IMG/VR virus record: IMGVR_UViG_3300035670_000038
Location: 1-64,000 of that record
Length of the DNA stretch: 64,000 bases
Source of the DNA: a virus
Strand: one strand, 5' to 3'
A program made the translations under genes and the position numbers. Of this stretch, positions 45,359 through 63,089 are shown one piece after another. Each line of letters begins with the position of its first letter. Position 1 is the stretch's first letter. Under the pieces are notes generated by a model. That model was not told the origin of the DNA and searched no databases. It saw nothing but the letters and a program-made list of their open reading frames with translations.

Positions 45359-45370
45359 CTTACTATTTAT

Positions 45371-45390
45371 TCTATAGAAATCTATAGAAA
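45371..45390 (+). repeat. Tandem direct repeat TCTATAGAAA x2 with palindromic core
   Basis: Read directly; lies between the TATTTAT motif and a small DNA-binding gene. Confidence 0.7.
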
Positions 45391-45398
45391 GGTTACGT

Positions 45399-45563
45399 AT
45401 GAAAAAAGATAAGCAACACTATACTACCGTTCAAATCACGAAAGAAATAAACAACCACATCCGTGAGTTCTGTAAACTCAATGGACTGGTCGCTAGCTCT
45501 GTAACAGAGATGTTATGGTCTAGGCATATTTCTTCAAGTATGAGCGGTAGTATTGTTTTATAG
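45399..45563 (+). CDS. Putative ribbon-helix-helix DNA-binding protein
   Basis: Not in track; YTTVQITKEINNHIREFCKLNGL beta-alpha-alpha pattern. Confidence 0.55.
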   Translation: MKKDKQHYTTVQITKEINNHIREFCKLNGLVASSVTEMLWSRHISSSMSGSIVL

Positions 45564-45571
45564 GAGATAAT

Positions 45572-45829
45572 ATGTCAGAAGAACAATTGGTGAATATCAT
45601 CAGACAACAATTGGATGAAGAAGCAGATACATCTTCTCCAAGACAACGTGTTTTCAAAACAGCACAGAAGGGAAATAACATCTTCGCAGAAAGTATAGGT
45701 CGTGCAGTGTATGAATATTTGGATACAATATACTTTGAACGTATCATTACGTACATCGAAGATACCTACGAACCACGTATCAAGAGATTAGAAGAACGAG
45801 TTACATCATTAGAAGCAAGGGTAAAATAA
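45572..45829 (+). CDS. Hypothetical coiled-coil protein
   Basis: 85 aa, AGGAG SD. Confidence 0.55.
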   Translation: MSEEQLVNIIRQQLDEEADTSSPRQRVFKTAQKGNNIFAESIGRAVYEYLDTIYFERIITYIEDTYEPRIKRLEERVTSLEARVK

Positions 45830-45832
45830 TAT

Positions 45833-48213: not shown

Positions 48214-48214
48214 T

Positions 48215-49522: not shown

Positions 49523-49902
49523 TGGCAATTGAAGAAATTAGAAGTACGTTGGGGATTCGTTCCTTCGTATCTAGAGCAGATTTAACACCAGGTAAAGTTA
49601 TTCAGTTCACATACGATGGTGAACAAAAATACGCACTGGTGTTAAATCCCGAATGGGAAGGTAAACTCCACGCACTTTCTATTAAAGATGTAAATCTTTC
49701 TAAATTTACAGAAATAAGAAAGTTGGTAGGTTCAGATGTTGATGGACAAGTATTATATTCTAAGTTTAGAAATTCAAGTTTAGTCGCGGATAGACCTTAT
49801 CGAACCTATTTATTATCAAAGGTATCTACGTTACGTGAAGTGTTTGTAAAAGAAGAAGTATTAAAGAAAGCTGAAGTAACGGAGAATATGTATGGGGAAT
49901 AA
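49522..49902 (+). CDS. Hypothetical protein (weak resemblance to DNA end-protector gp2 family)
   Basis: PGKVIQFTYD...YRTY pattern. Confidence 0.45.
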   Translation: MAIEEIRSTLGIRSFVSRADLTPGKVIQFTYDGEQKYALVLNPEWEGKLHALSIKDVNLSKFTEIRKLVGSDVDGQVLYSKFRNSSLVADRPYRTYLLSKVSTLREVFVKEEVLKKAEVTENMYGE

Positions 49903-50047
49903 CACATACCAACACCCACTTACCAATCTAAATTACGATAAACCAATAAATTTACAGAAGCTAATACCTAAAAGGGAATGGTGGACTGTTTGGTATTATA
50001 TCTTTACTGGTAAGATGATTGACTTAAAAAAAGAAAACAATAACTAA
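49892..50047 (+). CDS. Hypothetical small protein
   Basis: 51-aa ORF filling the gap; not in track. Confidence 0.35.
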   Translation: MGNNTYQHPLTNLNYDKPINLQKLIPKREWWTVWYYIFTGKMIDLKKENNN

Positions 50048-50066
50048 TATTTAAAGGAAGGGTTAT

Positions 50067-51092
50067 ATGACATACGAAGGTAATGTAAGTAAAAAACCAC
50101 TGAACACAGCGGAGAAAGTCGCTGTGGTTTTCGGTGGTTGTGGTTTTATAGGACACCATCTAGCTCGTAGATTACAACAAGAAGGATATTGGGTCAGAGT
50201 TGCTGACATCAAACCCCCAGAACATTGTGAACTTTCTACTTTCGCAGACGATTTCTATCACGGAGACTTGTCAAATGAAGGTATGACGTACAACGCTCTC
50301 AATCTTGGTAGAACCGATATTGAGGTATATCAACTTGCCGCGGATATGGGTGGTGCACAATATATCTTTAGTGGTGATAATGACGCAAATGTAATGTCAA
50401 ACTCCGCAGCTATCAATCTGAACGTTGTTCGTTCGATGATACGCTTGAAGTTAAAGAAGGTATTCTACTCATCGTCAGCATGTATCTATCCAGAACATAA
50501 CCAGATGGACCCTGACAATCCCAATTGCGAAGAGAGTTCGGCATATCCCGCAAATCCAGATTCGGAATATGGATGGGAGAAATTGTTTAGTGAACGCCTT
50601 TATATGTCATTCAAGAGAAACTATGGTATCGAATGTCGTATTGCACGATTTCATAATATCTACGGACCAGAAGGTACGTGGAGAGGTGGTAAAGAAAAGG
50701 CACCCGCAGCTCTCTGTCGTAAGGTATTGTTTACCCCAAGTGGTCGTTCAATAGAAATGTTTGGAGATGGTAAGCAGACCCGTTCATTCTTATATGTAGA
50801 CGAATGTGTTGAAGGTATTCTTCGATTGATGCGGTCTGATTATTGGAAGCCAGTTAATATTGGTTCGGAAGAAATGATTTCCATCAATGACTTTGCAAAG
50901 ATGATTATGGAAGTTGCTGGTAAGGAACTAGATATTGAACACATTCCAGGCCCACTTGGTGTCCGTGGTCGTTCTTCTGATAATAGACTTGTTCGTGAAG
51001 TATTGGGATGGGAACCAAATGCTCCACTTCGTGAAGGTATAACCAAGACATACAACTGGATTAAGGAAGTTGTAGAGAGTGAAAAGACATGA
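50067..51092 (+). CDS. GDP-mannose 3,5-epimerase-like SDR
   Basis: LAADMGG, YSSSACIYP, YGWEKL, RFHNIYGP.GTW.GGKEKAPAALCRK. Confidence 0.85.
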   Translation: MTYEGNVSKKPLNTAEKVAVVFGGCGFIGHHLARRLQQEGYWVRVADIKPPEHCELSTFADDFYHGDLSNEGMTYNALNLGRTDIEVYQLAADMGGAQYIFSGDNDANVMSNSAAINLNVVRSMIRLKLKKVFYSSSACIYPEHNQMDPDNPNCEESSAYPANPDSEYGWEKLFSERLYMSFKRNYGIECRIARFHNIYGPEGTWRGGKEKAPAALCRKVLFTPSGRSIEMFGDGKQTRSFLYVDECVEGILRLMRSDYWKPVNIGSEEMISINDFAKMIMEVAGKELDIEHIPGPLGVRGRSSDNRLVREVLGWEPNAPLREGITKTYNWIKEVVESEKT

Positions 51093-51925
51093 TTACGCAT
51101 GTTGGGATAGGAAACTCTGGACGATTTGGTAATCAAATATTCCAACTTGCTGCATTGATTGGTATTGCAGAAAAGAACGGATATGATATAAAGATTCCCA
51201 TAGAGAATACTGATAATCCATTTACATTTTTCGATTTGGCAAAACAACAAGCCGAACCAACTGGTATGGAACTTCGTAGACCATTTCTTATCCCAGACGA
51301 ATACTTTTCTCCATTTACTGACATCGCATCTGTGGTCAAGCAACGATATCAAGAACCATTCTTTCACTTCAATGGTGCAACATTAGATATTCCCGACAAT
51401 ACAGATATTGCTGGATTTTTTCAAAGTGAAAAGTATTTCAAACACGCAGAACAAACGGTTCGTGAAGTACTTACATTCCGTCCAGAAATAAGACAACAAG
51501 CTCAAATAGAATTGGCAAAGGTCAAGGACGATGCACCACGAGTGTCTATCCACGTTCGTCGTGGAGATTATGTAGCAAACTCGGCAAATCATACGGTGAC
51601 GGGTATGGAGTATTATGCTGAAGCTATTAGCAAGTTCTTTTCAAATGAATCATATCGATTCGTTGTATTCTCCGATGACCCAGAATGGTGTAAGGAAATG
51701 TTTGAAGGTGGACATATCGTAGACATCAATAACTCATATGTTGAGATGTGTATGATGAGTATGTGCGACCACCATATTATCGCAAATAGTTCATTCAGTT
51801 GGTGGGGAGCATGGTTAAATCCAAACCCAAAGAAGATTGTCACTGCACCCTCACTCTGGTTTGGTCCGAACCTTCGTCATAATAGTATTGTAGACATTCT
51901 ACCTGATGAGTGGTTTTGGATATGA
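51089..51925 (+). CDS. Alpha-1,2-fucosyltransferase family (GT11)
   Basis: GRFGNQIFQ, FQSEKYF, HVRRGDY, FSDD, NSSFSWW. Confidence 0.92.
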   Translation: MITHVGIGNSGRFGNQIFQLAALIGIAEKNGYDIKIPIENTDNPFTFFDLAKQQAEPTGMELRRPFLIPDEYFSPFTDIASVVKQRYQEPFFHFNGATLDIPDNTDIAGFFQSEKYFKHAEQTVREVLTFRPEIRQQAQIELAKVKDDAPRVSIHVRRGDYVANSANHTVTGMEYYAEAISKFFSNESYRFVVFSDDPEWCKEMFEGGHIVDINNSYVEMCMMSMCDHHIIANSSFSWWGAWLNPNPKKIVTAPSLWFGPNLRHNSIVDILPDEWFWI

Positions 51926-52521
51926 GATTAAAAGAATTTTATTATCAAATGGCAGAAGTAGAAGGTATTGGATTTTCTGATAAAGGTGACCGTCATCCAA
52001 CACACAAACACTTTTATATTGACATTTATGATGGAATGTTTTCTGCATGGAAGGATGAACCTGTTAAGTTGATGGAACTTGGTATAGCTTCTGGTGCAAG
52101 TTTATTAATGTGGTCACAGTTCTTTACAAAGGGACATATCCTTGGTCTTGACATCGTAGAACCTGTTCGTAAAGAGTATTTGGAAAAATTACCAAATGTT
52201 GGAATGATTTTTGGTGATGCATACAACAATGATAATGCTAAATACCTCGTAGAAAACTTACCAAAGCAAGACATTTTTATTGAAGATGGTGCACACGATA
52301 TAGATAATCAAATTACAGCACTACTGAAATATAATACACTCGTTAGACCAGGTGGATATTATATTTGCGAAGATTTATATATTGCAAATCTTGCAAGATA
52401 TCTCACCGAAGGTGTCTATCAAATAAACAATAGAAATTTTACAACCACTATATTTGACCAACATCGTCGTATCAATGGTTTGTATGACGATGTTATGGTT
52501 ATCATTCAATTCTTAAATTAA
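51922..52521 (+). CDS. Class I SAM-dependent (sugar O-) methyltransferase
   Basis: SDK, ELGI..GASL..W, EDGAH, PGGYYICED. Confidence 0.8.
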   Translation: MRLKEFYYQMAEVEGIGFSDKGDRHPTHKHFYIDIYDGMFSAWKDEPVKLMELGIASGASLLMWSQFFTKGHILGLDIVEPVRKEYLEKLPNVGMIFGDAYNNDNAKYLVENLPKQDIFIEDGAHDIDNQITALLKYNTLVRPGGYYICEDLYIANLARYLTEGVYQINNRNFTTTIFDQHRRINGLYDDVMVIIQFLN

Positions 52522-52522
52522 T

Positions 52523-53299
52523 ATGAAGATAGCATTGTGTTTATCTGGACAACCACGGGGATTACCTTTATCACTTAAAATGTTAAAGGCAAATCTTGTG
52601 GGTATAGAAAACATGGATATATTCTTACACGCATGGTTTGACCCATCTACAATCGGTCAACCATACGATAGTGCGCAAGCACATCAACAAGGTCGTGTGG
52701 GATTAGTGCATCCACAAACAGAAGAAATGTTATTGGGATTAACCCCAAAAGATTATTTGTTTGAACCACAAAAAGAATTTCCGTTTGCACGAAAGTTTGT
52801 ATCACCACCAGAGGCAAACCAAGAAAGAATGGCAAGTATTTTCTATTCCATCTATACCGCAAATATGTTGAAGAAACGATACGAAATATTGAACGGATTC
52901 GAATACGATTTGGTAATTCGTGCACGATATGATTTGTGGTATGAACAACCTATCGATGTGATGGAATATTGGGAGCAGTCTAGAACACACATTGTTACAG
53001 CTAATAAGTTTCAAGGAATACGAAACGACCCTAATTTTCAGCAGGGTAGTTATACGATGACAGACATCTTTGCATTCTCTACATCAAAAAATATGAACGT
53101 ATTTTGTGATACTTATCCGCACTTCTCGTTTATTCATTCGCAGATTGATATTCCATATGGTGAAAATTATATCGGGTATAGAGTTCGTGTGATGGGTGGA
53201 ATCGAAGCATACTGTGCTCCATTTAATTATGAAATAATGCATCGTGTGGTCAATATAAACAATTTAGAAGAACTGGAAAAACAATATGCCGCGTACTGA
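52523..53299 (+). CDS. Putative glycosyltransferase-like protein
   Basis: KIALCLSGQPR, FLHAW, YDLVIRARYD. Confidence 0.55.
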   Translation: MKIALCLSGQPRGLPLSLKMLKANLVGIENMDIFLHAWFDPSTIGQPYDSAQAHQQGRVGLVHPQTEEMLLGLTPKDYLFEPQKEFPFARKFVSPPEANQERMASIFYSIYTANMLKKRYEILNGFEYDLVIRARYDLWYEQPIDVMEYWEQSRTHIVTANKFQGIRNDPNFQQGSYTMTDIFAFSTSKNMNVFCDTYPHFSFIHSQIDIPYGENYIGYRVRVMGGIEAYCAPFNYEIMHRVVNINNLEELEKQYAAY

Positions 53300-54158
53300 T
53301 TTTACACCAGATAATGTTGAACTCTGGATTTCCAACTGGCGGAGAAAGGAATTGATGGATGGATTCGCACGTCAGTGGTTAAATACATTTGACTTCGAAC
53401 GAGTCAATATTATCACCAATCACTCATCGGTCACTATTGATGACTTCGCAGATGACATCAAACCTCGTGTCAAGATTTGGAACAATGTAATGCGACACGA
53501 CTACGCAATCGGTCCAATGGTTGAGAATTATAATCAGGCATATGTTCATACCTTCCTCGCTGGTAAAAAGTATTGTATAACGGCACATGACAATATGATT
53601 ATCAAGGATGGGTGGGTTGACATTATCAAAGAAACTGATTATGATTTATATATGGCCCCACAAGGTGACCAAGTAACTTTGATGACATTGGAAGGATTAC
53701 GTTTCTTTGGTTGGTGGGATGAACGATATGCAACAAATGGAAACCACGAATTGGATTTCAGTACACGTGCATTACGTAGAGATTTAGGACATAATAGAGC
53801 ATCAATGGTTGATTATCACGCATGGCATAACTGGCCTGATAAGATAGATGTGGAAGGAGAAATTGTAAGTCCAATATGTAGAAATGGACATCCAGAATTC
53901 GGTGATGGGTTTCCATACCTTAGATGGAATGATATAGGACTGGATAAATACTGGACAAGAGCCAGTAAGCATGACGTTCCACAATGTGGACCCAAGACAC
54001 AGAAGTTTGAGAAGTTGACTTGGAACGATAGGAAGTGGAGAGGACAGGCACCAAACACTTTCAAGAATTTCGCAGAAGGACCAGCAGAACCAGAACTTGA
54101 TTGGTATCCGTGGTTAGATATAAATTCACTAGACTTTGACATTTGTAAAATAGTATAA
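53286..54158 (+). CDS. Putative GT-A glycosyltransferase
   Basis: HDN acidic motif, GWWDERY...ELDF; island context. Confidence 0.5.
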   Translation: MPRTDFTPDNVELWISNWRRKELMDGFARQWLNTFDFERVNIITNHSSVTIDDFADDIKPRVKIWNNVMRHDYAIGPMVENYNQAYVHTFLAGKKYCITAHDNMIIKDGWVDIIKETDYDLYMAPQGDQVTLMTLEGLRFFGWWDERYATNGNHELDFSTRALRRDLGHNRASMVDYHAWHNWPDKIDVEGEIVSPICRNGHPEFGDGFPYLRWNDIGLDKYWTRASKHDVPQCGPKTQKFEKLTWNDRKWRGQAPNTFKNFAEGPAEPELDWYPWLDINSLDFDICKIV

Positions 54159-54170
54159 GGGGAAAATTAA

Positions 54171-54806
54171 ATGTTATCACAAAAGATTCAGGCAGCACTC
54201 GAAGATATTCGTAACGGAAAACCAATCATCGTTGTTGACAGTTATGATAGAGAAAATGAAGGTGACTTGATGATTGCCGCAGAGAAGGCAACTCCACAAA
54301 CCTTGGCGTTTATCGCAAAGGAAGCACGTGGAATTATGTGTATTCCTACACCAAAGTTTATGTTGGACCGTTTGGAAATTCCAATGAGTCCATCAAACAA
54401 CAATGACAAGTTTTCTACTCCATTCACAGTTAGTATTGACGCACGTGATGGTGTCACTACTGGCGTAAGTGTTGAAGATCGTATGGTCACGATTGGATTG
54501 GTGTTGGATGAGAACACCAAACCAGAACAACTTGCGTACCCAGGTCACTTATTTCCACTTCGTCCTCGTCCTGGTTTATTAAAAGAACGTCAAGGTCATA
54601 CGGAAGCATCAGTTCAACTTGCGATGATGGCTGGAACGAAACCAGTGGCAATCATCTGTGAGATTATGAATGACGATGGTAGCATGGCTCGTATTCCAGA
54701 CCTCGAACCATATGCAGAGAAGTGGGGACTTAATATGATTTCTATTGATGAAGTCATCGAATACTGTAATGAAACTGGATGGGAACCACCATTTAATGTT
54801 GGGTAA
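54171..54806 (+). CDS. ribB: 3,4-dihydroxy-2-butanone-4-phosphate synthase
   Basis: DRENEGD, FTVSID, TTGVS..DR, PGHLFPL, RQGHTEA, ICEI. Confidence 0.95.
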   Translation: MLSQKIQAALEDIRNGKPIIVVDSYDRENEGDLMIAAEKATPQTLAFIAKEARGIMCIPTPKFMLDRLEIPMSPSNNNDKFSTPFTVSIDARDGVTTGVSVEDRMVTIGLVLDENTKPEQLAYPGHLFPLRPRPGLLKERQGHTEASVQLAMMAGTKPVAIICEIMNDDGSMARIPDLEPYAEKWGLNMISIDEVIEYCNETGWEPPFNVG

Positions 54807-54809
54807 ACA

Positions 54810-55496
54810 ATGCGTGTAGCAGTTGTAACTTCTCCAAGAACAGGTTCTTCGTTTTGTATAAAATTAATATCCGAATTACTAAATCTTGAAAACTATGAAG
54901 AAATTTTAAATGAGCAGTTATATGTTTTTGAAGATGATAGCCACGTTCGTATTAATACCAACATAACAAACGAAAAAATATTGGAGAAATTATTACACAC
55001 AAATGATTATGTTGTAAAAATAATGGCTTCGGAGTTGTTTGAGAGAAATTTTAATGTAAGTGATTTTCCGTGGGATAAGTTTGATTTAATCATACTACTA
55101 GAACGTGACAATATATTCGAGCAAATAACCAGTTGGTATAGTTTAAATTATTGGCAACAACGTGTTACAAATACTACTACCTCCGAATACAACATAAAAG
55201 ATAAATTTCTTAGATATACAATTGAATGCATAAAAAAATATCACATCGTAAAAGATTTGATAATCCAGAATAGAAATAAGTTTGTTGTGATGGAAAAAGA
55301 AAACATAATAAATGATGTATCTGTAATATTCGACACGCAAATCACAGATGATATAATACTTCGTGCAAGAAAAAAATTAGTTCCTGAATGTGATTTGAAC
55401 GATATTGATTACGAAGTAATAATGAGTAATCAAAATATAAAACAAAGAGTATTAAGTATATTGGAGCAAGAATTAAATGGAACGGATAGTAACTAG
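54810..55496 (+). CDS. Sulfotransferase-like protein
   Basis: SPRTGSS, E, LER..FEQITSW. Confidence 0.65.
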   Translation: MRVAVVTSPRTGSSFCIKLISELLNLENYEEILNEQLYVFEDDSHVRINTNITNEKILEKLLHTNDYVVKIMASELFERNFNVSDFPWDKFDLIILLERDNIFEQITSWYSLNYWQQRVTNTTTSEYNIKDKFLRYTIECIKKYHIVKDLIIQNRNKFVVMEKENIINDVSVIFDTQITDDIILRARKKLVPECDLNDIDYEVIMSNQNIKQRVLSILEQELNGTDSN

Positions 55497-56469
55497 AGCA
55501 TACAATAGATTCGAAATAGATGAAACCAGAGGTGTCATTCGTAAGTTGAGTGCTACCCCCCGGCTTCGTGATGAGATACAATATTATGTTAAGTTAGTTA
55601 ATGCCCATCCACGTGAAGCTACGTTCTTCCCAAGATTGTTTCAATGGTCAGCAGAGGGTGAGAATCATTGGATGGATTTGGAAATGTATGATTATCCCAA
55701 CTTAGGTAAATATCTCCTAGCAGAAGATATACTACCTGAATGGTATTCTGTTTTAGATAAACTAAAAAATATTCTTCTACACTGGTCTACAACGCATCCA
55801 TATTCTGTGTGGACAAAGGAAGAAATTCGTCAGGCAGCATTCGATATGTACATCACCAAAACAGAACGAGAACAAAAAGCATTCTATAACGGATGGAAAG
55901 ATAAACTTGATTGCATATTTCTTGACCAGATAAAAAATCATATAATCTATATTAACAAAAAAGAATATAAACCATTTGAAATTATTTGGTTGCAAGTACG
56001 AAAGTACATAGAAGAAAATATGTTGGAGTTTACACCTTCCCTTATCCACGGTGATTGTTGTTTTAGTAATATTCTATATGGTAAGGATAAGAAAATTATA
56101 CGATTTATAGACCCACGTGGTTCTTTCGGTAAAGATGGTATATACGGAGATATTAGATACGATGTGGCAAAATTGTATCACTCTGTGGATGGAACATATG
56201 AATCATTTATTACAGATAAATTTGAAGTATCAAGTAATGGTAATTTACATGATTTGATTCTAACAGGTCATATGTCAAGAATAGAAACCAGTCATGCGTT
56301 GGAAGCTTTTGAAAATACTTTCTTCCCGCAATTTAATAAGAAAGAAATTAAGATATTGCAAGGATGTATTTTTATTGGAATGTGTGCTCGTCACTATGAT
56401 AGTTTAGAAAGACAACACGCAATGTATCTAACCGGAATCCGTTTACTTAATGAGGCTATGGAACTATGA
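55477..56469 (+). CDS. APH/choline-kinase-fold phosphotransferase (capsule-locus type)
   Basis: TRAYN, IHGDCCFSNIL, FIDPRG, GDIRYDVAKL. Confidence 0.8.
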   Translation: MERIVTRAYNRFEIDETRGVIRKLSATPRLRDEIQYYVKLVNAHPREATFFPRLFQWSAEGENHWMDLEMYDYPNLGKYLLAEDILPEWYSVLDKLKNILLHWSTTHPYSVWTKEEIRQAAFDMYITKTEREQKAFYNGWKDKLDCIFLDQIKNHIIYINKKEYKPFEIIWLQVRKYIEENMLEFTPSLIHGDCCFSNILYGKDKKIIRFIDPRGSFGKDGIYGDIRYDVAKLYHSVDGTYESFITDKFEVSSNGNLHDLILTGHMSRIETSHALEAFENTFFPQFNKKEIKILQGCIFIGMCARHYDSLERQHAMYLTGIRLLNEAMEL

Positions 56470-57236
56470 ATATACTAGTATTGATGGCTGGTAGAGGTCA
56501 ACGATTCCGTGATAAAGGATACGATAAGCCAAAACCATTAATCGAAGTTAATGGTAAGACAATTCTTCAATGGACAACCGAATCATGCCCATACATCAGT
56601 CATAATGGTAAGGGACAAGGTGATTATATAAAACTCCACTTTGCAGTTCTCCAAGAGCATTTAGACGAAGGATTGGATAAATTTCTGTATTCCGTTTATG
56701 GTCGTGATATTGAAATTATTCCATTCAAGGAAGTAACCAGAGGTAGTTTAGATACCGCGATGCAAGCAGCATCTCGTATGTGGCATAAAGAATATCCATT
56801 GTTGGTATTAGATTCCGACAACAAATATAATGACAATGGTTTTAAAGATTTTGTTCGTGAAATAGTCTTTAAAAAGAACGCAATGGCAGTGGCATGCTTC
56901 GACAATCCAGACCAATCACTTCCTAATAAGTGGTCAAATGTAGATGTTCGTGAAGGAGTGGCAAAAGGAATTCGTGAAAAAGACGATTCGTGGGTTCATC
57001 ATCCCACAATGATTGGAATATTCTACTTTGGTCAAACTAAGTTCTTTAAGGAATATGCAAAGTTTATTATGGAGTTTCATAAACCAGTAGAGTTTAATGG
57101 GAACGCAGAGTATTATATGAGTATGGTTCCGTCTTATAATATCGGTATAAATACTCCTGTATATGTTCACAAAGTCACCGATGTTGTTCCACTTGGAACA
57201 CCAGAAGATGTTAAAAAGTTTGAGGAATCTATATGA
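56466..57236 (+). CDS. Sugar-phosphate nucleotidyltransferase
   Basis: LMAGRGQRF...PKPLI, DSD, EK, EYY, LGTPED. Confidence 0.85.
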   Translation: MNILVLMAGRGQRFRDKGYDKPKPLIEVNGKTILQWTTESCPYISHNGKGQGDYIKLHFAVLQEHLDEGLDKFLYSVYGRDIEIIPFKEVTRGSLDTAMQAASRMWHKEYPLLVLDSDNKYNDNGFKDFVREIVFKKNAMAVACFDNPDQSLPNKWSNVDVREGVAKGIREKDDSWVHHPTMIGIFYFGQTKFFKEYAKFIMEFHKPVEFNGNAEYYMSMVPSYNIGINTPVYVHKVTDVVPLGTPEDVKKFEESI

Positions 57237-57613
57237 TTTTTTGTTTTGACATTGATGCAACTATCTGTGAAAATAAAACTGGTGATATGACTTACGCAGA
57301 TGTTAAACCATTCCCAGAAGCATTGGAAACATTACGATGGTTACGAGCAGAAGGACACACCATTATTCTTCATACTGCACGACATATGAAAACTGGTGGT
57401 GGAAATCAAGGAAAGGTATTGAAATTACAAGGTAAAGTATTATTTGATTGGCTAGAAAAGTGGGATGTTCCATATGATGAACTTTGGTGGAGTAAACCAC
57501 ACGCCGATTTAACGATAGATGATGCAGTACATAGACACACAGATTGGGCAACCTCAATCTTAGCAATAAAAGATAGAATACGTAAAGGACCAAGAACCGT
57601 GGAGAATCCATAA
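57233..57613 (+). CDS. HAD phosphatase (EcbF/BcbF capsule-biosynthesis type)
   Basis: FDIDATI, HTAR, KP..D..IDD. Confidence 0.85.
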   Translation: MIFCFDIDATICENKTGDMTYADVKPFPEALETLRWLRAEGHTIILHTARHMKTGGGNQGKVLKLQGKVLFDWLEKWDVPYDELWWSKPHADLTIDDAVHRHTDWATSILAIKDRIRKGPRTVENP

Positions 57614-58446
57614 TGTCACAACCAACATTCTTTTTTGACACAGCAGACACCGACTATATCCGTAAGATTTGGGACAAGTTGGGTAAGTATATTGACGGTA
57701 GTTCCGTAATCGGAATAACCACCAACCCAAACGCATTGGCAAAGGTCAATTGCGATACACTTGAAAAGTTTGAAACACTTGTACCACAGATGACTTCACT
57801 TGTTGGAGAACTTCGTGGTGAAGGACCACAAGGATTGGTCTATGTACAAGTTCCAAATTCTACAATGAAGGATGAAGATATTCTTCGTTGGGCAACCTAT
57901 GTGAATGAGTTTAATGGAAACGGTGCAGCAATCGCATTAAAACTTCCTCATTTCAGTTATGTCCTTCGTTTATCTGGTGAACCTGAATTACAAAATCTTT
58001 TCCTAAATGTAACTGGTGTATCGGATGCAAATACAATCATTAAGGCGTTGAGTTACCAGAATGTATTCTTCGCAAGTATTATTCCAGGTCGTATGGAAGA
58101 AGTTGGTATTGATGCAAACGCACATCTCAAATATTTGGCTGACCAACAACTCCAACGTCACCAGAACATAATCGCTGGTAGTATGAGAACAATTGAAGGA
58201 TTGAAGAACTCTATCTTCTATCACACGGTTCCGACCATCGGTAGTCGTGTATGGGATTTGATTGATAAGGAAAATCGTTGGGAAGAATTTGCATCCTATT
58301 GGGAAACCACATATGAAGTCTCAGAAGAACCAAGTGCTGACTACACACCATTGGTTACAGATACGAATCTGGATTTAAGTAAGCAATTCTTTGACCAGAT
58401 GGATAAGTTGGGTGAATCACTTCATACGGAGTTTATGTCCAGATGA
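57613..58446 (+). CDS. Transaldolase/fructose-6-phosphate aldolase-like protein
   Basis: FFDTAD, GITTNP, LKLP (Schiff-base Lys), NVT, GR, AGSMR. Confidence 0.75.
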   Translation: MSQPTFFFDTADTDYIRKIWDKLGKYIDGSSVIGITTNPNALAKVNCDTLEKFETLVPQMTSLVGELRGEGPQGLVYVQVPNSTMKDEDILRWATYVNEFNGNGAAIALKLPHFSYVLRLSGEPELQNLFLNVTGVSDANTIIKALSYQNVFFASIIPGRMEEVGIDANAHLKYLADQQLQRHQNIIAGSMRTIEGLKNSIFYHTVPTIGSRVWDLIDKENRWEEFASYWETTYEVSEEPSADYTPLVTDTNLDLSKQFFDQMDKLGESLHTEFMSR

Positions 58447-59162
58447 ACATAATCATCCCAATGGCAGGTGAGGGGACTCGTGTAAAAAGCACAGTTCCCA
58501 AACCACTTGTCGAGGTTATTAGTGGAAAACCAATGATTGAGATGGCATTGGAATCATTAAACATTGATGGACATTATTGTTTTATTGTTCGTCGTTATAA
58601 CAATCAAGATTGGAATGTCGCACTTCGTGAAGCAATCCACAAAACGGTAGGAAATGCGGTGATTGTGGAAATCGACTATCTAACAAAAGGACCAGCGATT
58701 TCTGCATTACATGCACCAAATCTTTTCTTTAATGATGAAGATTTATTGGTTACCAACTGTGACCAGATAATGCATTGGGATGCAGACAAGTTTATCGACT
58801 TCACCAAGACAACAGATGCGGATGGTGCTGTGGTCACATATGAAACACAAACACCAAAGAATAGTTACGCAAGAGTTATATCGGACGAAGAACATCCTGA
58901 ATTTGATATTATAAAAGAAAAGGAAGTTATTAGTAAATATTCATTAAATGGTATTCATTGGTGGAAGCATGGAAAGAACTTTGCAAAATCAGTGGTGAAG
59001 ATGATGGAAAGTAAAGACACAGTAAATGGTGAATACTACGTTGGTCCATCATACAATTATTTAGATGGTACTAAGAGAGTTTACAATATAGATTCATCAG
59101 AACATTTTGCTGTTGGAACTCTGGAAGATATTGAACGATATAGGGTGATTTATGGACGTTAA
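58443..59162 (+). CDS. Second sugar-phosphate nucleotidyltransferase
   Basis: PMAGEGTR...PKPL, NCDQ, EK, NGEYYV.P.YN, GT.ED. Confidence 0.85.
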   Translation: MNIIIPMAGEGTRVKSTVPKPLVEVISGKPMIEMALESLNIDGHYCFIVRRYNNQDWNVALREAIHKTVGNAVIVEIDYLTKGPAISALHAPNLFFNDEDLLVTNCDQIMHWDADKFIDFTKTTDADGAVVTYETQTPKNSYARVISDEEHPEFDIIKEKEVISKYSLNGIHWWKHGKNFAKSVVKMMESKDTVNGEYYVGPSYNYLDGTKRVYNIDSSEHFAVGTLEDIERYRVIYGR

Positions 59163-59478
59163 ACGTATTGAGAATATGAAGGGTGGATGGTTTATTGGGG
59201 ACTTCGACCCTGCCGTTTTACGAACCCACGACTTTGAAGTAGGGTATAAGTTTCATCCAAAAGGTGAGAAGTGGGACAAACACTATCACAAACGAGCAGT
59301 CGAGATTACATATCTGATTCGTGGCAAGATGCAAATACAGGATAGGATATTGACTTCTGGTGATATATTCACTATACTTCCGTATGAAGTTGCAGACCCA
59401 ATTTTCTTAGAAGATTGTGAAGTAGTAATAGTAAAAAGCCCATCCGTTGTGGGTGACAAATATACTATAGAGGAATAA
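59152..59478 (+). CDS. Small cupin protein
   Basis: GWFIGDF.P, HYH....E, GD, K.PS..GDKY. Confidence 0.75.
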   Translation: MDVKRIENMKGGWFIGDFDPAVLRTHDFEVGYKFHPKGEKWDKHYHKRAVEITYLIRGKMQIQDRILTSGDIFTILPYEVADPIFLEDCEVVIVKSPSVVGDKYTIEE

Positions 59479-59481
59479 GTT

Positions 59482-60711
59482 ATGAGTGTTAATATTTTTA
59501 CACGTGATGTAGATTTATCAAAATATTTTGTTGTCAAGTATTTCTTAGTCGGTAAGACATCACTACGTGATGCTGCATGGAACTTGGCAATTGGACAAAG
59601 TATCGGCAATCCCAACAACAGAAGTGTGTGGGAAACCGACCAGATGTTTCTTGACCACAGTTGTTTCATTCTTGCAGACGAAGGGGAACTAAAATCAAAG
59701 ACTTCTGGTGAAGTTGAGATTGCTTTCCCACTCGCAAACATCAATCTTGAAGAAGATGGTGTGTCTCAAATTCTTTGCCATATCGCCGGTGGTCAAGTAG
59801 ATATTCTCGAAATTGAACAGTGCCACGTATTAGACATCACATTACCAGAAGAAATTGACCAGATGTTTACCCTCAAACCTGCGTATGGTATCACAGGTTT
59901 CCGTGAATTCAATTGGGTAGAAAATAAACCATTCTTCGGTGGTATCATCAAACCCAAGGTTGGTATGAGTCCAAAGGTATTGTTGGAAGCTGTGAAGGAA
60001 ATGGTTGACGGTGGTGTGAACTTTATCAAGGAAGATGAGTTACTTGGTGACCCATCACACTGTTCACTAAAAGAACGAGTTCCACTCATCTCTAACTGGT
60101 TAAGAAAGAATTGTCCAGAGGTAATGTATACCTTCTGTATCAATGGTGATAGTCCTTACGCACTCCAACGAGCACAGTTCGTAGAGGATGAAGGTGGACT
60201 TGGTGTTCACATCAACGTGTGGAGTGGGTTGGGTGTCTATCGTGCAATTCGTAAGCAGAATCCTAGACTCTGGATTCATTTCCAGAAGTCGGGTGATAAG
60301 TTCTTTACTGACAGACGAGCACCAAATCATATCTATTGGCCTGTTATCTGTAAGATTGCAGGATGGTCTGGTGCAGACTCTATTCACGCAGGTATGATTG
60401 GTGGATATATGAACCAAGACGATACTGAATTGAAGGACGCACTAAAGGTATTGTGGAAGTATAATGTTATCCCAGCACTCAGTTGTGGAATGCATCCTGG
60501 ATTAGTTCAACACATCAACACTTTACTTGGTAGTAATGATTGGATGGCAAACGTTGGTGGGGCGATGCACGGACACCCGATGGGAACCAAGGCTGGTGGA
60601 TTGGCAATGCGCCAAGCTATTAGTGGATTCCACGGACCAGAGTATGAAGCTGCAATCAAGAAATGGGGATTCAAAGAAGTAAACCCTGATTTACAATATA
60701 GAATTTTTTAA
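59482..60711 (+). CDS. RuBisCO-like protein (large-subunit fold, probably non-carboxylating)
   Basis: GGIIKPKVG, GGVNFIKEDE, GADSIHAG, PALSCGMH, VGGAMHGHP..G..AMRQA. Confidence 0.9.
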   Translation: MSVNIFTRDVDLSKYFVVKYFLVGKTSLRDAAWNLAIGQSIGNPNNRSVWETDQMFLDHSCFILADEGELKSKTSGEVEIAFPLANINLEEDGVSQILCHIAGGQVDILEIEQCHVLDITLPEEIDQMFTLKPAYGITGFREFNWVENKPFFGGIIKPKVGMSPKVLLEAVKEMVDGGVNFIKEDELLGDPSHCSLKERVPLISNWLRKNCPEVMYTFCINGDSPYALQRAQFVEDEGGLGVHINVWSGLGVYRAIRKQNPRLWIHFQKSGDKFFTDRRAPNHIYWPVICKIAGWSGADSIHAGMIGGYMNQDDTELKDALKVLWKYNVIPALSCGMHPGLVQHINTLLGSNDWMANVGGAMHGHPMGTKAGGLAMRQAISGFHGPEYEAAIKKWGFKEVNPDLQYRIF

Positions 60712-60723
60712 TAGGAATATACA

Positions 60724-61380
60724 ATGGTCACCCAAGACATCCTTAATGCAATATCAAGAACCCCAACAGACATCTACGGATTGAAATGGGCACCTTCGGT
60801 AGAACCTACTATTGGTAATGATGTGGATTGGATTAATCCAACTCGTGGAAATTGGTCAATTCATTGGAGTGCAGCTAATGATATAGCACTTCGTGAAGCA
60901 TGGTCACGATGTGAGAGTTCTCCAAAACTTATTGTTGAAATCGGTGTACACCGCCCGGAAAGAAATGACGAAGGACGTTCTTCCACAAGTACGTTACTCA
61001 GTTTAAAGGATGACGATTGTATGTACATTGGTATAGATTTAGCAGACAGAACATTCTTAAACGATATGGGTAAGAATATATTTACCATCCAAGGTGATTC
61101 ATCAAACAAGAATGAAGTGTATAAATTGATGGAATGGTATGGTAAAGAAACTATTGATTTTATGTTTGTAGATGGATGGCATTCGATTAATCAATGCTTA
61201 CGAGATTGGCAATATTGGGAAAGAATTTCAAACACAGGTGTTATGGCGTTCCACGATACAAATTATCATCCAGGACCAGTTGCACTTCTTGACGCTGTAG
61301 ACGAATCGATATTTGATATACAGATATTTAATCGTGATGAAGATGACGCCGGTGTTGCATACGTAAAACGTAGAGGTTAA
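60724..61380 (+). CDS. Class I SAM-dependent methyltransferase (Methyltransf_24-like)
   Basis: VEIGV, GDS, FVDGWHS, FHD. Confidence 0.8.
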   Translation: MVTQDILNAISRTPTDIYGLKWAPSVEPTIGNDVDWINPTRGNWSIHWSAANDIALREAWSRCESSPKLIVEIGVHRPERNDEGRSSTSTLLSLKDDDCMYIGIDLADRTFLNDMGKNIFTIQGDSSNKNEVYKLMEWYGKETIDFMFVDGWHSINQCLRDWQYWERISNTGVMAFHDTNYHPGPVALLDAVDESIFDIQIFNRDEDDAGVAYVKRRG

Positions 61381-61381
61381 T

Positions 61382-62293
61382 ATGGCAAAGGGTTTGATTT
61401 CAATATTTACATTACCGCACGAGATTGATAATCTTCAAACAACGTTATACAATCTTCGTAGAAACTATGCGGTGATGTCTGGGCACGAATTCGGATTTGA
61501 CATAACTCTGTGTTTAAGTGATGAACTTACAGATTGGAATACTTCACAATTATCTAGAGAATACTTTGCAAGTAAGTATCGGCAAATTGTAGATAGTTTG
61601 TGTGATTGGGCAACGTTAGAAAGTATCAAGATTGAATATGGAAACACTATTCTTGGATGTGTGTCGCAACGTAGACACTCATTAAAATTCTTGAATAAAT
61701 ATGATTTCACGATGTGGTTAGACAATGATATGTTTTTCAATGATTATCTGTTGGCATATGTTGGTACATCGGTAAATATGTTATTAGAACAAGGTATAGA
61801 ACACTATGTTCTCACACCACAGATTACACGGCAGTGGGATGAAACGTGGGATGTCATTGTCAACAAAGATTTGTTAGATAGACCACTCAATGACAATTTA
61901 ACCGCCGATGTATTTGACTTGGGTTTAACACCGAGTGGTAATGTTGGATTACGACCAATAGAAACCTTTAAAGCTGCGGGTGGATGGTGTACAACAATTA
62001 GTAATGATTTGTTAGAACTTACTGGTATTCCAGATTCATTCGGTCATTACGGATTGGAAGATACATATGTCTTAGTGTGTGCAGATTTACTTCGTAGAAT
62101 GAATCGTAAAGAAAAACCACAACAGTTTGTAATTGACAATTTGATTGTTGGTGAAAACCACAGATATCAAACTAGTGATTACTTGAAGAATCATCTTGTA
62201 TCTTTCGATAGAAAAGATGAGTTTAGACAAATAGCAACAAACAACTTTAATAGTGAGATTGAAAAGTTTATCCAACGGATGCTTCAACAATGA
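61382..62293 (+). CDS. Putative GT-A glycosyltransferase
   Basis: WLDND, GGW, YGLED. Confidence 0.6.
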   Translation: MAKGLISIFTLPHEIDNLQTTLYNLRRNYAVMSGHEFGFDITLCLSDELTDWNTSQLSREYFASKYRQIVDSLCDWATLESIKIEYGNTILGCVSQRRHSLKFLNKYDFTMWLDNDMFFNDYLLAYVGTSVNMLLEQGIEHYVLTPQITRQWDETWDVIVNKDLLDRPLNDNLTADVFDLGLTPSGNVGLRPIETFKAAGGWCTTISNDLLELTGIPDSFGHYGLEDTYVLVCADLLRRMNRKEKPQQFVIDNLIVGENHRYQTSDYLKNHLVSFDRKDEFRQIATNNFNSEIEKFIQRMLQQ

Positions 62294-63048
62294 AAATCTT
62301 TTACAGAATATCAGAATCTACTAATTCACAACACGCAGCTGCAAGAACGTGGCAAGTGAAACTTCCAAATGCAACAAAAAAGAATTGCTTACTCAATACG
62401 ATGGAATGTTTTCCAACCGCAGAGATAAAAGTGTTTGTAGACTCAATTACCGATGAAACGTGGAATTGGTTACACACTCTCCCACGAATCACTATCCAGA
62501 AGATTAATGAAGGTTCTGATGCAAAGTCTATGCGGGTGTTATTGAAGGAAGCAGTATTATTAGAAGATGATAATCAAATCGTATTGTTCCAAGAAGATGA
62601 TTATCTATATCTACCTGGGTCAGAGAAGAAGATAATAGAAGCATTAAACTATTCTCACTACGCTACTGGATATTTACATCCCGACAAGTTTTGGCATCCA
62701 AGTCGTGGTGGTAATCCATTCACTCCGATGGATAATGTGTCCGAAGCAACACAAGTCATAAAAACTTCTGACCATTTCTGGATGGTTACAAACTCCACAA
62801 CAAACACATTCGCAACCACGGTTGGTGTATTAAAGGAAGATATTGATGTGTGGATGTGGGGAACAGAAGATTTAATTAATACAAAAGACTTCGCAATCTT
62901 TCTTAAACTTCGTGAGAAGGGTCGAGCATTGGTGCAACCACTACCATCATTAGCAACACATTGTCTCAAAGGATACGAAGCACCTACTGTTGGATTAGAT
63001 ATTGATTCTTGGGAAAGCATACAACCCTTGACACCAACCACAGAGTAG
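62290..63048 (+). CDS. Putative GT-A glycosyltransferase
   Basis: FQEDDYL, HPDK, STTNTF, ATH. Confidence 0.6.
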   Translation: MKIFYRISESTNSQHAAARTWQVKLPNATKKNCLLNTMECFPTAEIKVFVDSITDETWNWLHTLPRITIQKINEGSDAKSMRVLLKEAVLLEDDNQIVLFQEDDYLYLPGSEKKIIEALNYSHYATGYLHPDKFWHPSRGGNPFTPMDNVSEATQVIKTSDHFWMVTNSTTNTFATTVGVLKEDIDVWMWGTEDLINTKDFAIFLKLREKGRALVQPLPSLATHCLKGYEAPTVGLDIDSWESIQPLTPTTE

Positions 63049-63056
63049 TTTATATT
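63028..63056 (+). promoter_or_regulatory. sigma70-type promoter overlapping the TATTTATA motif
   Basis: TTGACA-17 nt-TATATT. Confidence 0.7.
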
Positions 63057-63089
63057 TATATCTTAGAACCCTTAACATAATATATTATA

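What the first reader, a model, noticed from the sequence alone, without database searches (positions are those of the whole stretch)
54171..60711. Candidate new pathway: RuBisCO-like protein, transaldolase-like enzyme and RibB wired to a kinase/NTP-transferase/HAD cassette in a phage glycan island
Seen: a tightly coupled run (overlapping or 0-3 nt spaced genes) of ribB, sulfotransferase, APH-fold kinase, nucleotidyltransferase, EcbF/BcbF-type HAD, transaldolase-like, second nucleotidyltransferase, cupin and RuBisCO-like protein, flanked by glycosyl- and methyltransferases. Known: RibB, transaldolase/FSA and RuBisCO-superfamily enzymes all act on ketose phosphates. Kinase + nucleotidyltransferase + EcbF-type HAD sets occur in bacterial capsule loci (bcbE/F, kfoE type), which I recall being linked to ketofuranose side groups; this should be verified. 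Inference: the phage diverts pentose/hexose phosphates, rearranges the carbon skeleton (isomerisation, epimerisation or branching) and activates an unusual sugar as an NDP donor for its own glycosyltransferases. This would be a biosynthetic role for an RLP, unlike the known methionine-salvage or sugar-catabolic roles.
Basis: partly seen in the sequence, partly recalled or inferred. Interest (0 to 1): 0.88.

Follow-up and report, generated by a model that had tools for sequence, protein, structure and literature searches.

The report
Two adjacent phage sugar-activation gene cassettes
An uncultured large phage carries, side by side in its sugar-coat gene island, two separately inherited gene sets that probably make unusual activated sugars, one built on the riboflavin enzyme RibB and one on a RuBisCO relative that cannot fix CO2, a job never tested for that enzyme family.

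Summary
The gene run is real: nine co-directional, overlapping or 3-nt-spaced genes with the stated families. The 'sulfotransferase' is only a lead.

It is not one pathway. It is two cassettes.

- **Cassette A (54171-58446):** RibB, APH-fold kinase, nucleotidyltransferase NT1, HAD phosphatase and a transaldolase-like enzyme. In 40 viral loci found with the transaldolase-like gene, kinase and HAD occur in 40, RibB in 39 and the RuBisCO-like protein (RLP) in 7. Its kinase and HAD are homologous to the published phage UDP-arabinofuranose genes.
- **Cassette B (58443-60711):** NT2, cupin and RLP. In 130 RLP loci from viruses, SAR11, Patescibacteria, DPANN archaea and Legionella, a nucleotidyltransferase lies within 3 kb in 122, the cupin in 86, and RibB or the aldolase in 6. 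Natural fusions exist: RLP-NT, RLP-NT-cupin and miniGDPD-RLP.

Whole-genome checks with positive controls found neither cassette in four phages carrying the other.

The RLP belongs to the phage 'form IV-like' clade of Jaffe et al. 2019, whose function is unknown. A biosynthetic role is supported by context only, and neither product is known.

This scan reached the same reading earlier on other DNA.

The parts
54171..54806 (+). Cassette A: RibB, 3,4-dihydroxy-2-butanone-4-phosphate synthase
   Evidence: PF00926 E 9e-75; TIGR00506 218.9 bits, above its cutoff of 177.45. Next to the kinase/HAD/aldolase in 39 of 40 loci. Fused to an NT in 16 ORFs elsewhere.
54810..55496 (+). 228-aa insert, sulfotransferase-like P-loop protein (lead only)
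   Evidence: No Pfam or NCBIfam family. Atlas look-alikes are Stf0 sulfotransferase clusters. No tblastn match to it in the related loci L002-L005 and L009.
55477..56469 (+). Cassette A: APH-fold kinase, homologous to the kinase half of AfhE-like phage enzymes
   Evidence: PF01636 25.3 bits, above 23.2. Catalytic motifs are invariant. tblastn finds 311 phage records, mostly Straboviridae 'GlmU/NTP-transferase' genes. 26% identity over 263 aa to Kosakonia phage Kc304, E 3e-12.
56466..57236 (+). Cassette A: nucleotidyltransferase NT1
   Evidence: PF00483 25.5 bits, above 21.2. Forms its own clade, always between kinase and HAD (100* local support).
57233..57613 (+). Cassette A: small HAD phosphatase (AfhF/GmhB-like, nearest model EcbF-BcbF)
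   Evidence: TIGR01689 E 3e-16, under its cutoff. DxDxT motif at residues 6-10. 38% identity over 102 aa to the 121-aa gene next to the AfhE-like gene of phage Kc304.
57613..58446 (+). Cassette A: transaldolase/FSA-fold Schiff-base enzyme with a C-terminal extension
   Evidence: Profile A6 against PDB transaldolases, E 3.4e-10, Lys in 'KxP' aligned. Invariant DTA, TTNP, Q79, K110, NxT and IPGR.
58443..59162 (+). Cassette B: nucleotidyltransferase NT2
   Evidence: PF00483 29.6 bits, PF12804 30.5 bits. An NT lies within 3 kb of the RLP in 122 of 130 loci. Fused to the RLP in P0122, P0271 and P0272.
59152..59478 (+). Cassette B: 108-aa metal-type cupin
   Evidence: Cupin motif 1. AF2 pLDDT 96. 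Foldseek: archaeal phosphomannose isomerase 7zvm TM 0.68-0.70, and KdgF. Near the RLP in 86 of 130 loci. Fused in P0271 and P0272.
59482..60711 (+). Cassette B: RuBisCO-like protein of the 'form IV-like' clade
   Evidence: PF00016 E 8e-33. Best solved relatives are 3nwr RLP at 116 bits and 2cwx form III at 111 bits. Mg/carbamate residues are kept; the positions of E60, N123, H294, R295 and K334 read Q, G, Q, K, Y.
47236..54158 (+). Upstream glycan-island genes: GDP-mannose 4,6-dehydratase, GT1, SDR epimerase/reductase, GT11, CmcI-like methyltransferase, DUF7796-like, 290-aa unknown
   Evidence: Pfam.
60724..63048 (+). Downstream island genes: Methyltransf_24, 303-aa unknown, weak GT2-like
   Evidence: Pfam. 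Conserved in order in L002-L005 and L009.

Best explanation
The 6.5-kb run is two separately inherited sugar-activation cassettes that came to lie next to each other in a phage glycan island. Each probably supplies its own nucleotide-activated building block to the island's transferases.

Cassette A (RibB, kinase, NT1, HAD, transaldolase-like) works like the published phage UDP-arabinofuranose route and the NDP-heptose route. In that logic a sugar with a terminal phosphate is phosphorylated at the anomeric position, the HAD removes the terminal phosphate, and the NT makes the NDP-sugar. Here the arabinose-5-phosphate isomerase of that route is replaced by RibB, which makes 3,4-dihydroxy-2-butanone 4-phosphate from ribulose 5-phosphate, plus a Schiff-base aldolase that presumably builds the carbon skeleton.

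Cassette B (NT2, cupin, RLP) uses the RLP's retained Mg2+/carbamate site to enolise and isomerise or epimerise a keto-sugar or ketol phosphate without carboxylation. The cupin adds a further keto/aldo isomerisation, and NT2 joins the phosphate to a nucleotide.

Shown: gene content, conservation, fusions, independence of the two cassettes, loss of carboxylase residues, and homology of the kinase and HAD to the Afh genes. Inferred: every substrate, product and reaction order.
For: Independence of the cassettes:
- RLP loci: NT within 3 kb in 122 of 130, cupin in 86 of 130, RibB/aldolase/kinase in 6 of 130.
- Aldolase loci: kinase 40 of 40, HAD 40 of 40, RibB 39 of 40, an NT within 3 kb 34 of 40, RLP 7 of 40.
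- Whole records: 0 of 4 cassette-A phages have an RLP and 0 of 4 RLP phages have the aldolase. Positive controls were 4 of 4 each.
- RLP tree: the window type is a small derived clade (99*) inside a viral clade that has cupin plus mini-GDPD and no aldolase. The other joint layout (L120) sits elsewhere.

Cassette B as a unit:
- Fusions: RLP-NT in P0122, RLP-NT-cupin in P0271 and P0272, miniGDPD-RLP in P0169.
- Non-carboxylase site: Q, Q and Y at the E60, H294 and K334 positions are invariant in 20 clade members of 36-84% identity, with KPK and K-x-D-E kept.

Glycan context:
- The island has GMD, GT1, GT11 and methyltransferases.
- 73 of 130 RLP loci hold a homolog of a window island gene.
- GT2, GT17, GT61, DegT and SDR genes lie near cellular copies.
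- A LicD family gene lies beside RLP-NT in 4 of 4 Legionellaceae loci. LicD enzymes use CDP conjugates (PMC11666461, passage).

Cassette A logic:
- The AfhE/AfhF route is read in PMC13326640 (passages).
- Kinase and HAD homology to Straboviridae genes that lie next to an arabinose-5-P isomerase.
- NT-RibB fusions in 16 ORFs.
Against: - No substrate or product is known for either cassette. All chemistry is inference.
- The two cassettes are translationally coupled here: a 4-nt overlap joins the aldolase and NT2 genes, and no terminator-like site lies between them on the + strand (scan at chance level).
- The cassettes have become neighbours at least twice, so cross-talk in this phage is not excluded.
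- RibB-fused NTs nest inside the clade of RLP-adjacent NTs (FastTree, local support only). That could mean RibB and RLP feed similar substrates.
- The window type lacks the mini-GDPD gene found in 87 of 130 RLP loci, so its cassette B may depend on a neighbour such as the HAD.
- The cupin is missing near 44 of 130 RLPs, so it is not essential to the core reaction.
- 57 of 130 RLP loci showed no homolog of the window's island genes.
- The aldolase lacks, by eye, both usual acid/base residues, so it may not be an aldolase at all.
Confidence: 0.62

Rival explanations
1. One linear pathway. RibB, the transaldolase-like enzyme and the RLP remodel one pentose- or hexose-phosphate skeleton, which the kinase, HAD and two NTs then activate.
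For: - All nine genes are overlapping or 3 nt apart.
- Both gene sets are neighbours in two unrelated layouts: the window type and L120/L156/L157.
- NTs fused to RibB belong to the same subfamily as RLP-adjacent NTs.
- The window type has lost the mini-GDPD that most RLP cassettes carry.
Against: - RibB, aldolase and kinase lie near the RLP in 6 of 130 loci, and the RLP near the aldolase in 7 of 40.
- Neither cassette was found in four near-complete or complete genomes carrying the other, with working positive controls.
- Each cassette has its own NT.
Confidence: 0.1
2. Cassette B is not glycan biosynthesis. It is an auxiliary salvage or catabolic module, like the Rhodospirillum rubrum RLP plus cupin pair that recycles methylthioadenosine-derived ketose 1-phosphates (recalled from memory), or like RLPs of acid-sugar catabolism.
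For: - All characterised RLPs act in salvage or catabolism (abstract and introduction passages of PMC6389311).
- An RLP next to a small cupin recalls the R. rubrum pair (recalled, not tested).
- In T4-like contigs the cassette lies next to gp32 with few glycan genes.
Against: - Fusion to a nucleotidyltransferase has no role in those salvage routes.
- NCBIfam scores for MtnW (95 against cutoff 409) and OiaX (114 against 700) are far under their cutoffs.
- Glycosyltransferase, methyltransferase, epimerase and LicD neighbours.
Confidence: 0.08
3. RibB and the transaldolase-like gene are ordinary auxiliary metabolic genes (flavin supply; pentose-phosphate flux like cyanophage talC) that merely sit in the island. 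Only the kinase, HAD and NT activate a common sugar.
For: - RibB scores as a true equivalog domain.
- Cyanophages are known to carry talC. S-SKS1 has a second, ordinary transaldolase hit (second match; annotation).
Against: - RibB, kinase, HAD and the aldolase-like gene are adjacent in 39 to 40 of 40 loci.
- RibB is fused to the NT in 16 ORFs.
- The aldolase-like protein is a separate, divergent subfamily with its own invariant residues and a C-terminal extension.
- No other riboflavin gene was seen among the 20 island ORFs scanned.
Confidence: 0.04

Closest known systems
'Form IV-like' RuBisCO-related proteins of phages and Beckwithbacteria (Jaffe, Castelle, Dupont, Banfield 2019, Mol Biol Evol; PMC6389311, passages read)
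   Same: A divergent RLP clade on Myoviridae-type and roughly 200-kb phage contigs plus Beckwithbacteria. My clade includes a Beckwithbacteria copy (L021, 50% identity). Key carboxylase residues are missing.
   Different: The paper leaves the function 'unclear'. In the passages I read it describes no link to a nucleotidyltransferase, cupin or GDPD-like gene and no fusions. Its supplementary figures, which I could not open, may show gene maps.
Phage UDP-D-arabinofuranose route: arabinose-5-P isomerase + AfhE (NT + kinase) + AfhF (HAD phosphatase) (PMC13326640, Nucleic Acids Res 2026, passages read)
   Same: Starts from ribulose 5-phosphate and uses the kinase, then HAD phosphatase, then NT logic. 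The window's kinase and HAD are sequence homologs of the Straboviridae genes.
   Different: No isomerase here; RibB and a transaldolase-like enzyme stand in its place. Kinase and NT are separate genes. NT1 and NT2 gave no tblastn match to the Kc304 gene at E 0.01. The context is a glycan island, not DNA modification genes.
Rhodospirillum rubrum RLP (5-methylthioribulose-1-P isomerase) with its neighbouring cupin (recalled from memory, no call)
   Same: A non-carboxylating RLP that moves a carbonyl along a ketose 1-phosphate, next to a small cupin.
   Different: No nucleotidyltransferase is involved there. No sequence test was made here. NCBIfam salvage models score far under their cutoffs.
Type II phosphomannose isomerase / GDP-mannose pyrophosphorylase (AlgA/XanB type: NT domain followed by a cupin isomerase domain; recalled)
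   Same: NT followed by a small metal cupin. The window cupin's best named structural matches include archaeal phosphomannose isomerase.
   Different: The third partner there is a phosphomutase, not an RLP. Homology beyond the fold was not shown.
LicA/LicC/LicD-type decoration (kinase, cytidylyltransferase, LicD transferase of CDP-activated head groups)
   Same: A LicD family gene lies beside RLP-NT in 4 of 4 Legionellaceae loci. LicD enzymes use CDP conjugates (PMC11666461).
   Different: No LicD in the window or in any of the other 126 RLP loci. The nucleotide used by NT2 is unknown.

Membership tests
RuBisCO large-subunit superfamily | Match to PF00016 above the gathering score | tested here: met
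   114.5 bits against 30.1.
Bona fide RuBisCO (forms I-III) | Full catalytic set including the residues at spinach positions E60, N123, H294 and K334 (numbering recalled) | tested here: not met
   Alignment to form III 2cwx reads Q, G, Q, Y at these positions. Q, Q and Y are invariant in the clade. TIGR03326 scores 151 bits against a cutoff of 497.
Form IV-like phage RLP clade (Jaffe 2019) | Groups with phage and Beckwithbacteria sequences, apart from other RLPs | tested here: inconclusive
   The clade is set off by a score gap: 207-458 bits, then about 150. It holds a Beckwithbacteria copy. The paper's own sequences were not in my tree.
MtnW/YkrW enolase and OiaX decarboxylase RLPs | NCBIfam equivalog score above cutoff | tested here: not met
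   PRK09549 95 against 409; TIGR03332 66 against 514; OiaX 114 against 700.
RibB (DHBP synthase) | TIGR00506 above cutoff | tested here: met
   218.9 against 177.45. Activity not testable here.
Transaldolase/FSA family | Pfam PF00923 above the gathering score | tested here: not met
   21.3 against 27, although the match is full length.
Transaldolase/FSA family | Schiff-base lysine and TIM-barrel relatives | tested here: met
   Profile against PDB transaldolases, E 3.4e-10, Lys aligned. K110 is invariant.
Transaldolase/FSA family | Acid/base pair (Glu+Phe in transaldolase, Gln+Tyr in FSA; recalled) | tested here: inconclusive
   Q79 and I157 are invariant, but their equivalence rests on alignment by eye. 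The HMM alignment has a gap at the Glu position.
EcbF-BcbF capsule phosphatase (TIGR01689) | Score above the curated cutoff | tested here: not met
   59.4 against 162. It is the best-scoring model, E 3e-16. HAD motif I is present.
Afh-type UDP-arabinofuranose pathway | Arabinose-5-phosphate isomerase (SIS) gene in the cassette | tested here: not met
   No SIS/API domain among the 20 island ORFs scanned with Pfam.
Afh-type UDP-arabinofuranose pathway | Homologous kinase and HAD phosphatase | tested here: met
   Kinase 26% identity over 263 aa, E 3e-12. HAD 38% over 102 aa, E 2.6e-12, against phage Kc304. 311 phage records match the kinase.
Cupin superfamily | Cupin motif 1 and double-stranded beta-helix fold | tested here: met
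   Motif. AF2 pLDDT 96. 141 Foldseek matches at E<=0.001, all of those listed being cupins.
Sulfotransferase (54810-55496) | Match to a sulfotransferase family model | tested here: not met
   No Pfam or NCBIfam hit. Atlas look-alikes only.

The most novel reading that the evidence does not exclude
The form IV-like RLP is a biosynthetic enzyme of nucleotide-sugar metabolism, a role unknown for the RuBisCO superfamily. It takes a ketose 1-phosphate or 1,5-bisphosphate derived from nucleotides or the Calvin/AMP pathway, such as ribulose-1-P or ribulose-1,5-bisphosphate. It epimerises or shifts the carbonyl through the enediolate, or eliminates phosphate to a deoxy-diketone like RibB's own intermediate. 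The cupin then converts the product to a form with an activatable phosphate, and NT2 makes a new NDP- or CDP-linked pentose or ketol donor. That donor would be used by phages, giant viruses, SAR11, Patescibacteria, DPANN archaea and Legionella. In this phage the RibB cassette and the RLP cassette would then feed chemically related C4/C5 keto-phosphate donors into one glycan.
Probability: 0.2. Interest if true: 0.9.

Novelty: new variant of a known kind. Interest (0 to 1): 0.72.

Why it matters
Several RLP clades have had no known function since they were first seen in ocean metagenomes and phage contigs. Here the phage clade gets a concrete, testable setting: a three-enzyme unit that nature has even fused into one 813-aa protein, embedded in glycan loci of very abundant organisms (SAR11, marine and freshwater phages, DPANN and Patescibacteria) and of culturable Legionella.

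If the RLP makes an activated sugar or ketol, that would be the first biosynthetic role for the RuBisCO superfamily outside CO2 fixation and salvage. It would also reveal an unknown glycan component on widespread microbes and viruses.

The RibB cassette likewise points to an undescribed use of a riboflavin-pathway enzyme, and it can be studied in the cultured cyanophage S-SKS1.

Tried and rejected
I used the search for related loci instead, as the tool message advised.
- **Single-sequence AF2 of the cupin** was useless (pLDDT 45). I repeated it with an alignment.
- **PDB sequence searches** gave nothing for the single transaldolase-like protein, the kinase and NT1. NT2 gave only a weak GlmU hit.
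- **The DUF7796-like putative transferase** (50 of 130 RLP loci) has no solved relative. The Atlas gives only 'capsular polysaccharide biosynthesis / DUF7796'. Its chemistry, glycosyl or phospho-transfer, stays open.
- **LicD** was sought in all ORFs of all loci and the window with jackhmmer. It occurs only in the 4 Legionellaceae loci, so it cannot be generalised.
- **Mini-GDPD**: tblastn with 87 members found none in the window. The profile search of the whole 131-kb record was empty, but it had no positive control, so absence outside the window is not shown.
- **Promoter and terminator scan** of 45000-64000 was at chance level: 70 found against 70.2 expected, and 10 against 10.8.
- **Complex prediction** of RLP with NT2 gave no verdict. 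It counts neither way.
- **Paper searches**:
  - 'RuBisCO-like protein'+phage: 24 papers.
  - 'IV-GOS': 1 paper, a review.
  - RuBisCO-like protein+nucleotidyltransferase+cupin: 0.
  - RuBisCO-like+nucleotidyltransferase: 1, irrelevant by title and abstract.
  - IV-like+RuBisCO+phage from 2019: 0.
  - dihydroxy-2-butanone+polysaccharide+cytidylyltransferase: 2, irrelevant by title.
  - 'bcbF' matched only unrelated words.
  - These searches are the whole basis for saying I found no published function. Subscription journals are not covered and supplements were closed.
- **Considered and dropped**:
  - The RLP as a carboxylase (residues).
  - The 126-aa gene as a phosphoheptose isomerase, as S-SKS1 annotates its homolog; it is a HAD.
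  - A phosphonate pathway (no PEP mutase-like neighbour among the annotated clusters).

Full report
**Observation.** Between 54171 and 60711 the + strand carries nine ORFs whose ends overlap by 1-20 nt or are 3 nt apart.

- Pfam and NCBIfam give RibB (PF00926 E 9e-75; TIGR00506 218.9 bits, above its cutoff) and an APH-fold kinase (25.3 bits against 23.2).
- They give two NTP_transferase proteins (25.5 and 29.6 bits against 21.2).
- They give a small HAD whose best model is EcbF-BcbF (E 3e-16, but under the curated cutoff).
- A full-length but sub-threshold TAL_FSA match and a RuBisCO large-chain protein (E 8e-33) complete the list.
- The 108-aa ORF has no family hit. It shows cupin motif 1, folds with pLDDT 96 when given 24 homologs, and matches cupin_2 structures, among them archaeal phosphomannose isomerase and KdgF.
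- A 15-sequence profile of the transaldolase-like protein hits solved transaldolases at E 3.4e-10 with the Schiff-base lysine aligned.
- The 228-aa 'sulfotransferase' has no family hit and only Atlas look-alikes. It gave no tblastn match in the closest related contigs.
- The flanks hold GDP-mannose dehydratase, GT1, an SDR, GT11, methyltransferases and a DUF7796-like gene.

The window is part of a 131-kb viral record estimated 67% complete, with phage replication genes upstream.

**The RLP and its partners.** The RLP has thousands of relatives: 2624 proteins at E<=1e-10, and the best 120 clusters are all at least 76% identical.

- In a library of 50%-identity representatives it forms its own group: about 20 full-length members at 36-55% identity and 207-458 bits. 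Scores then fall to about 150 bits for other RuBisCO and RLP sequences.
- Against solved structures it is equally far from an RLP (3nwr, 116 bits) and a form III RuBisCO (2cwx, 111 bits).
- The alignment to 2cwx and a 20-member clade alignment show the KPK and K-x-D-E Mg/carbamate residues and the His327 position kept.
- The positions of E60, N123, H294, R295 and K334 read Q, G, Q, K, Y. Q, Q and Y are invariant. The spinach numbering is recalled, not from a call.
- This is therefore a non-carboxylating RLP.
- Jaffe et al. 2019 (PMC6389311, passages read) already reported about 80 such 'form IV-like' sequences on phage contigs and in Beckwithbacteria and left the function unclear. My clade includes a Beckwithbacteria copy (L021).

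**Neighbourhoods of the RLP.** I fetched 80 viral loci (the best of 408 relatives) and 50 loci from cellular genomes. The cellular set covers Pelagibacterales including a complete chromosome, Patescibacteria, Woese-, Nano- and Micrarchaeota, Verrucomicrobiota, Planctomycetota, Legionellaceae, Nonomuraea, Azospirillum and others.

| Feature near the RLP (130 loci) | All | Cellular | Viral |
|---|---|---|---|
| Nucleotidyltransferase within 3 kb | 122 | 45 of 50 | 77 of 80 |
| Cupin | 86 | 16 of 50 | 70 of 80 |
| RibB, aldolase-like gene and kinase | 6 | 0 | 6 |

- Four of the eight loci without a nearby NT have short flanks.
- The six loci with RibB, aldolase and kinase are five near relatives of the window plus L120, which has a different gene order.
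- De novo clustering of neighbours found a fourth frequent partner, a roughly 150-aa protein in 87 of 130 loci, usually right after the RLP.
- Its profile weakly matches glycerophosphodiester phosphodiesterases (E 2.4e-4, with the HRG..EN..ExD..HD motifs aligned).
- That gene is absent from the window.
- Full-length GDPD genes lie near 10 cellular copies.

Fusions settle that these genes work together:
- P0122 is RLP plus NT.
- P0271 and P0272 are RLP plus NT plus cupin in 813 and 817 aa.
- P0169 is mini-GDPD plus RLP.

In the four Legionellaceae loci a LicD family gene (E 3e-43) lies beside RLP-NT. LicD enzymes use CDP conjugates (PMC11666461, passage). No deposited phage genome (50,697 records) has this RLP at E<=1e-10.

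**The RibB cassette.** A scan of viral contigs with the aldolase-like alignment gave 40 loci.

- Kinase and HAD are present in 40, RibB in 39 (the exception is cut at the locus end), an NT within 3 kb in 34, and the RLP in 7.
- There are two layouts. The window type is RibB-kinase-NT1-HAD-aldolase. The type of the cultured cyanophage S-SKS1 is an NT-RibB fusion followed by kinase, HAD and aldolase. I counted 16 such fused ORFs.
- In an NT tree (FastTree, 92 rows kept of 154 after 70% dereplication) NT1 is a separate clade (100*). The RibB-fused NTs nest among the RLP-adjacent NTs.
I read the passages (PMC13326640). The route runs ribulose-5-P to arabinose-5-P by an isomerase, then the AfhE kinase domain, the AfhF HAD phosphatase and the AfhE NT domain.
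- I tested the link. The window kinase finds 311 phage records, mostly Straboviridae genes annotated GlmU or NTP-transferase.
- In Kosakonia phage Kc304 the matched 559-aa gene lies between an arabinose-5-P isomerase and a 121-aa gene.
- The window kinase matches the 559-aa gene at 26% over 263 aa (E 3e-12). The window HAD matches the 121-aa gene at 38% over 102 aa (E 2.6e-12).
- NT1 and NT2 gave no match there.
- Cassette A therefore shares the kinase/phosphatase/NT logic of a known route but replaces the isomerase with RibB and a Schiff-base enzyme.

**Are the cassettes wired together?** At whole-record level they are independent.

- S-SKS1 (complete), a 217.7-kb genome with terminal repeats, and records estimated 90% and 48% complete carry the aldolase cassette and no RLP (0 of 4).
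- Four RLP phages of 246-294 kb (80-100% complete) carry no aldolase-like gene (0 of 4).
- The same searches found their targets in 4 of 4 records each when swapped. Two further loci were not held and not searched.
- On an RLP tree (91 rows kept of 128) the window and its relatives form a small clade (99*). It is nested in a viral clade whose members have cupin and mini-GDPD but no aldolase. L120 sits elsewhere.
- Adjacency therefore arose at least twice and is derived.
- This argues for two cassettes that meet in glycan islands, not one pathway.
- Against full independence in this phage: the tight coupling, the loss of the mini-GDPD and the shared NT subfamily.

**Mechanism.**

Shown:
- Family memberships.
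- Retained enolisation and Mg residues, and lost carboxylation residues.
- Fusions and conserved neighbourhoods.
- Homology to the Afh genes.

Inferred:
- Cassette A makes a terminally phosphorylated sugar from RibB's C4 ketone phosphate through a C-C bond step by the aldolase-like enzyme. It then activates the sugar by anomeric phosphorylation, dephosphorylation and nucleotidyl transfer.
- Aldol addition to the ketone would give a methyl-branched sugar.
- Cassette B enolises a keto-phosphate in the RLP, isomerises it with the cupin and activates it with NT2.
- Whether the donor is a glycosyl donor or a CDP-linked phospho-head group (as LicD in Legionella would suggest) is open.

**Comparison and novelty.** The RLP clade is in print, but its function is not. 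My searches for a published function found none. The limits are that subscription journals are not covered and supplements were closed.

The kinase/HAD/NT logic is known. RibB and a transaldolase-fold enzyme feeding it is not something I found described.

This scan's earlier follow-ups on other genomes reached the same two-cassette reading. I repeated the key tests independently here. I also made further tests here: the whole-genome independence test with controls, the NT tree, the LicD neighbour and the direct homology test to a Straboviridae Afh-like locus.

**Verdict.** Neither product is known.

Noticed in passing
P0215, P0257, P0156, P0163 (proteins): Other RuBisCO-superfamily fusions: a TIR domain plus RuBisCO N+C (583 aa), RuBisCO plus an APH-type kinase (1265 aa), and IF-2B (MtnA / ribose-1,5-bisphosphate isomerase family) plus RuBisCO (726 and 742 aa).
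   Followed up: no
L102, L111, L126: The RLP cassette also occurs on contigs whose names mark them as giant-virus bins (GVMAG), with mini-GDPD and an NT.
   Followed up: partly
window 54810-55496: The 228-aa sulfotransferase-like ORF gave no tblastn match in the five closest related contigs, so it looks like a recent insert between ribB and the kinase gene. It would add sulfation to the island if the Atlas lead holds.
   Followed up: partly
L001 12098-12454 (Synechococcus phage S-SKS1, SWZG_00040): Annotated 'phosphoheptose isomerase', but it is the homolog (46% identity) of the window's HAD phosphatase. The name is probably wrong. SWZG_00042, annotated as DHBP synthase, is an NT-RibB fusion.
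   Followed up: partly
L006 8133-9958: A TylF-type methyltransferase and a UDP-galactopyranose mutase are inserted between the cupin and the RLP, tying that copy of the cassette to furanose sugar metabolism.
   Followed up: no
L019 6713-7714 and 11193-11963 (Pelagibacter chromosome): A D-2-hydroxyacid dehydrogenase and a CMP-sugar type cytidylyltransferase (PF02348) flank miniGDPD-NT-RLP. The dehydrogenase could bear on the RLP's substrate.
   Followed up: no
L143, L147, L150, L151, L169, L171: RibB cassettes without an RLP that carry a second NT2-type NT and a mini-GDPD a few kb downstream. The mini-GDPD therefore travels with NT2-type genes even without the RLP.
   Followed up: no
phages collection: No deposited phage genome among 50,697 records encodes this RLP at E<=1e-10, although 408 IMG/VR stretches do. 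No cultured phage model for cassette B turned up.
   Followed up: yes
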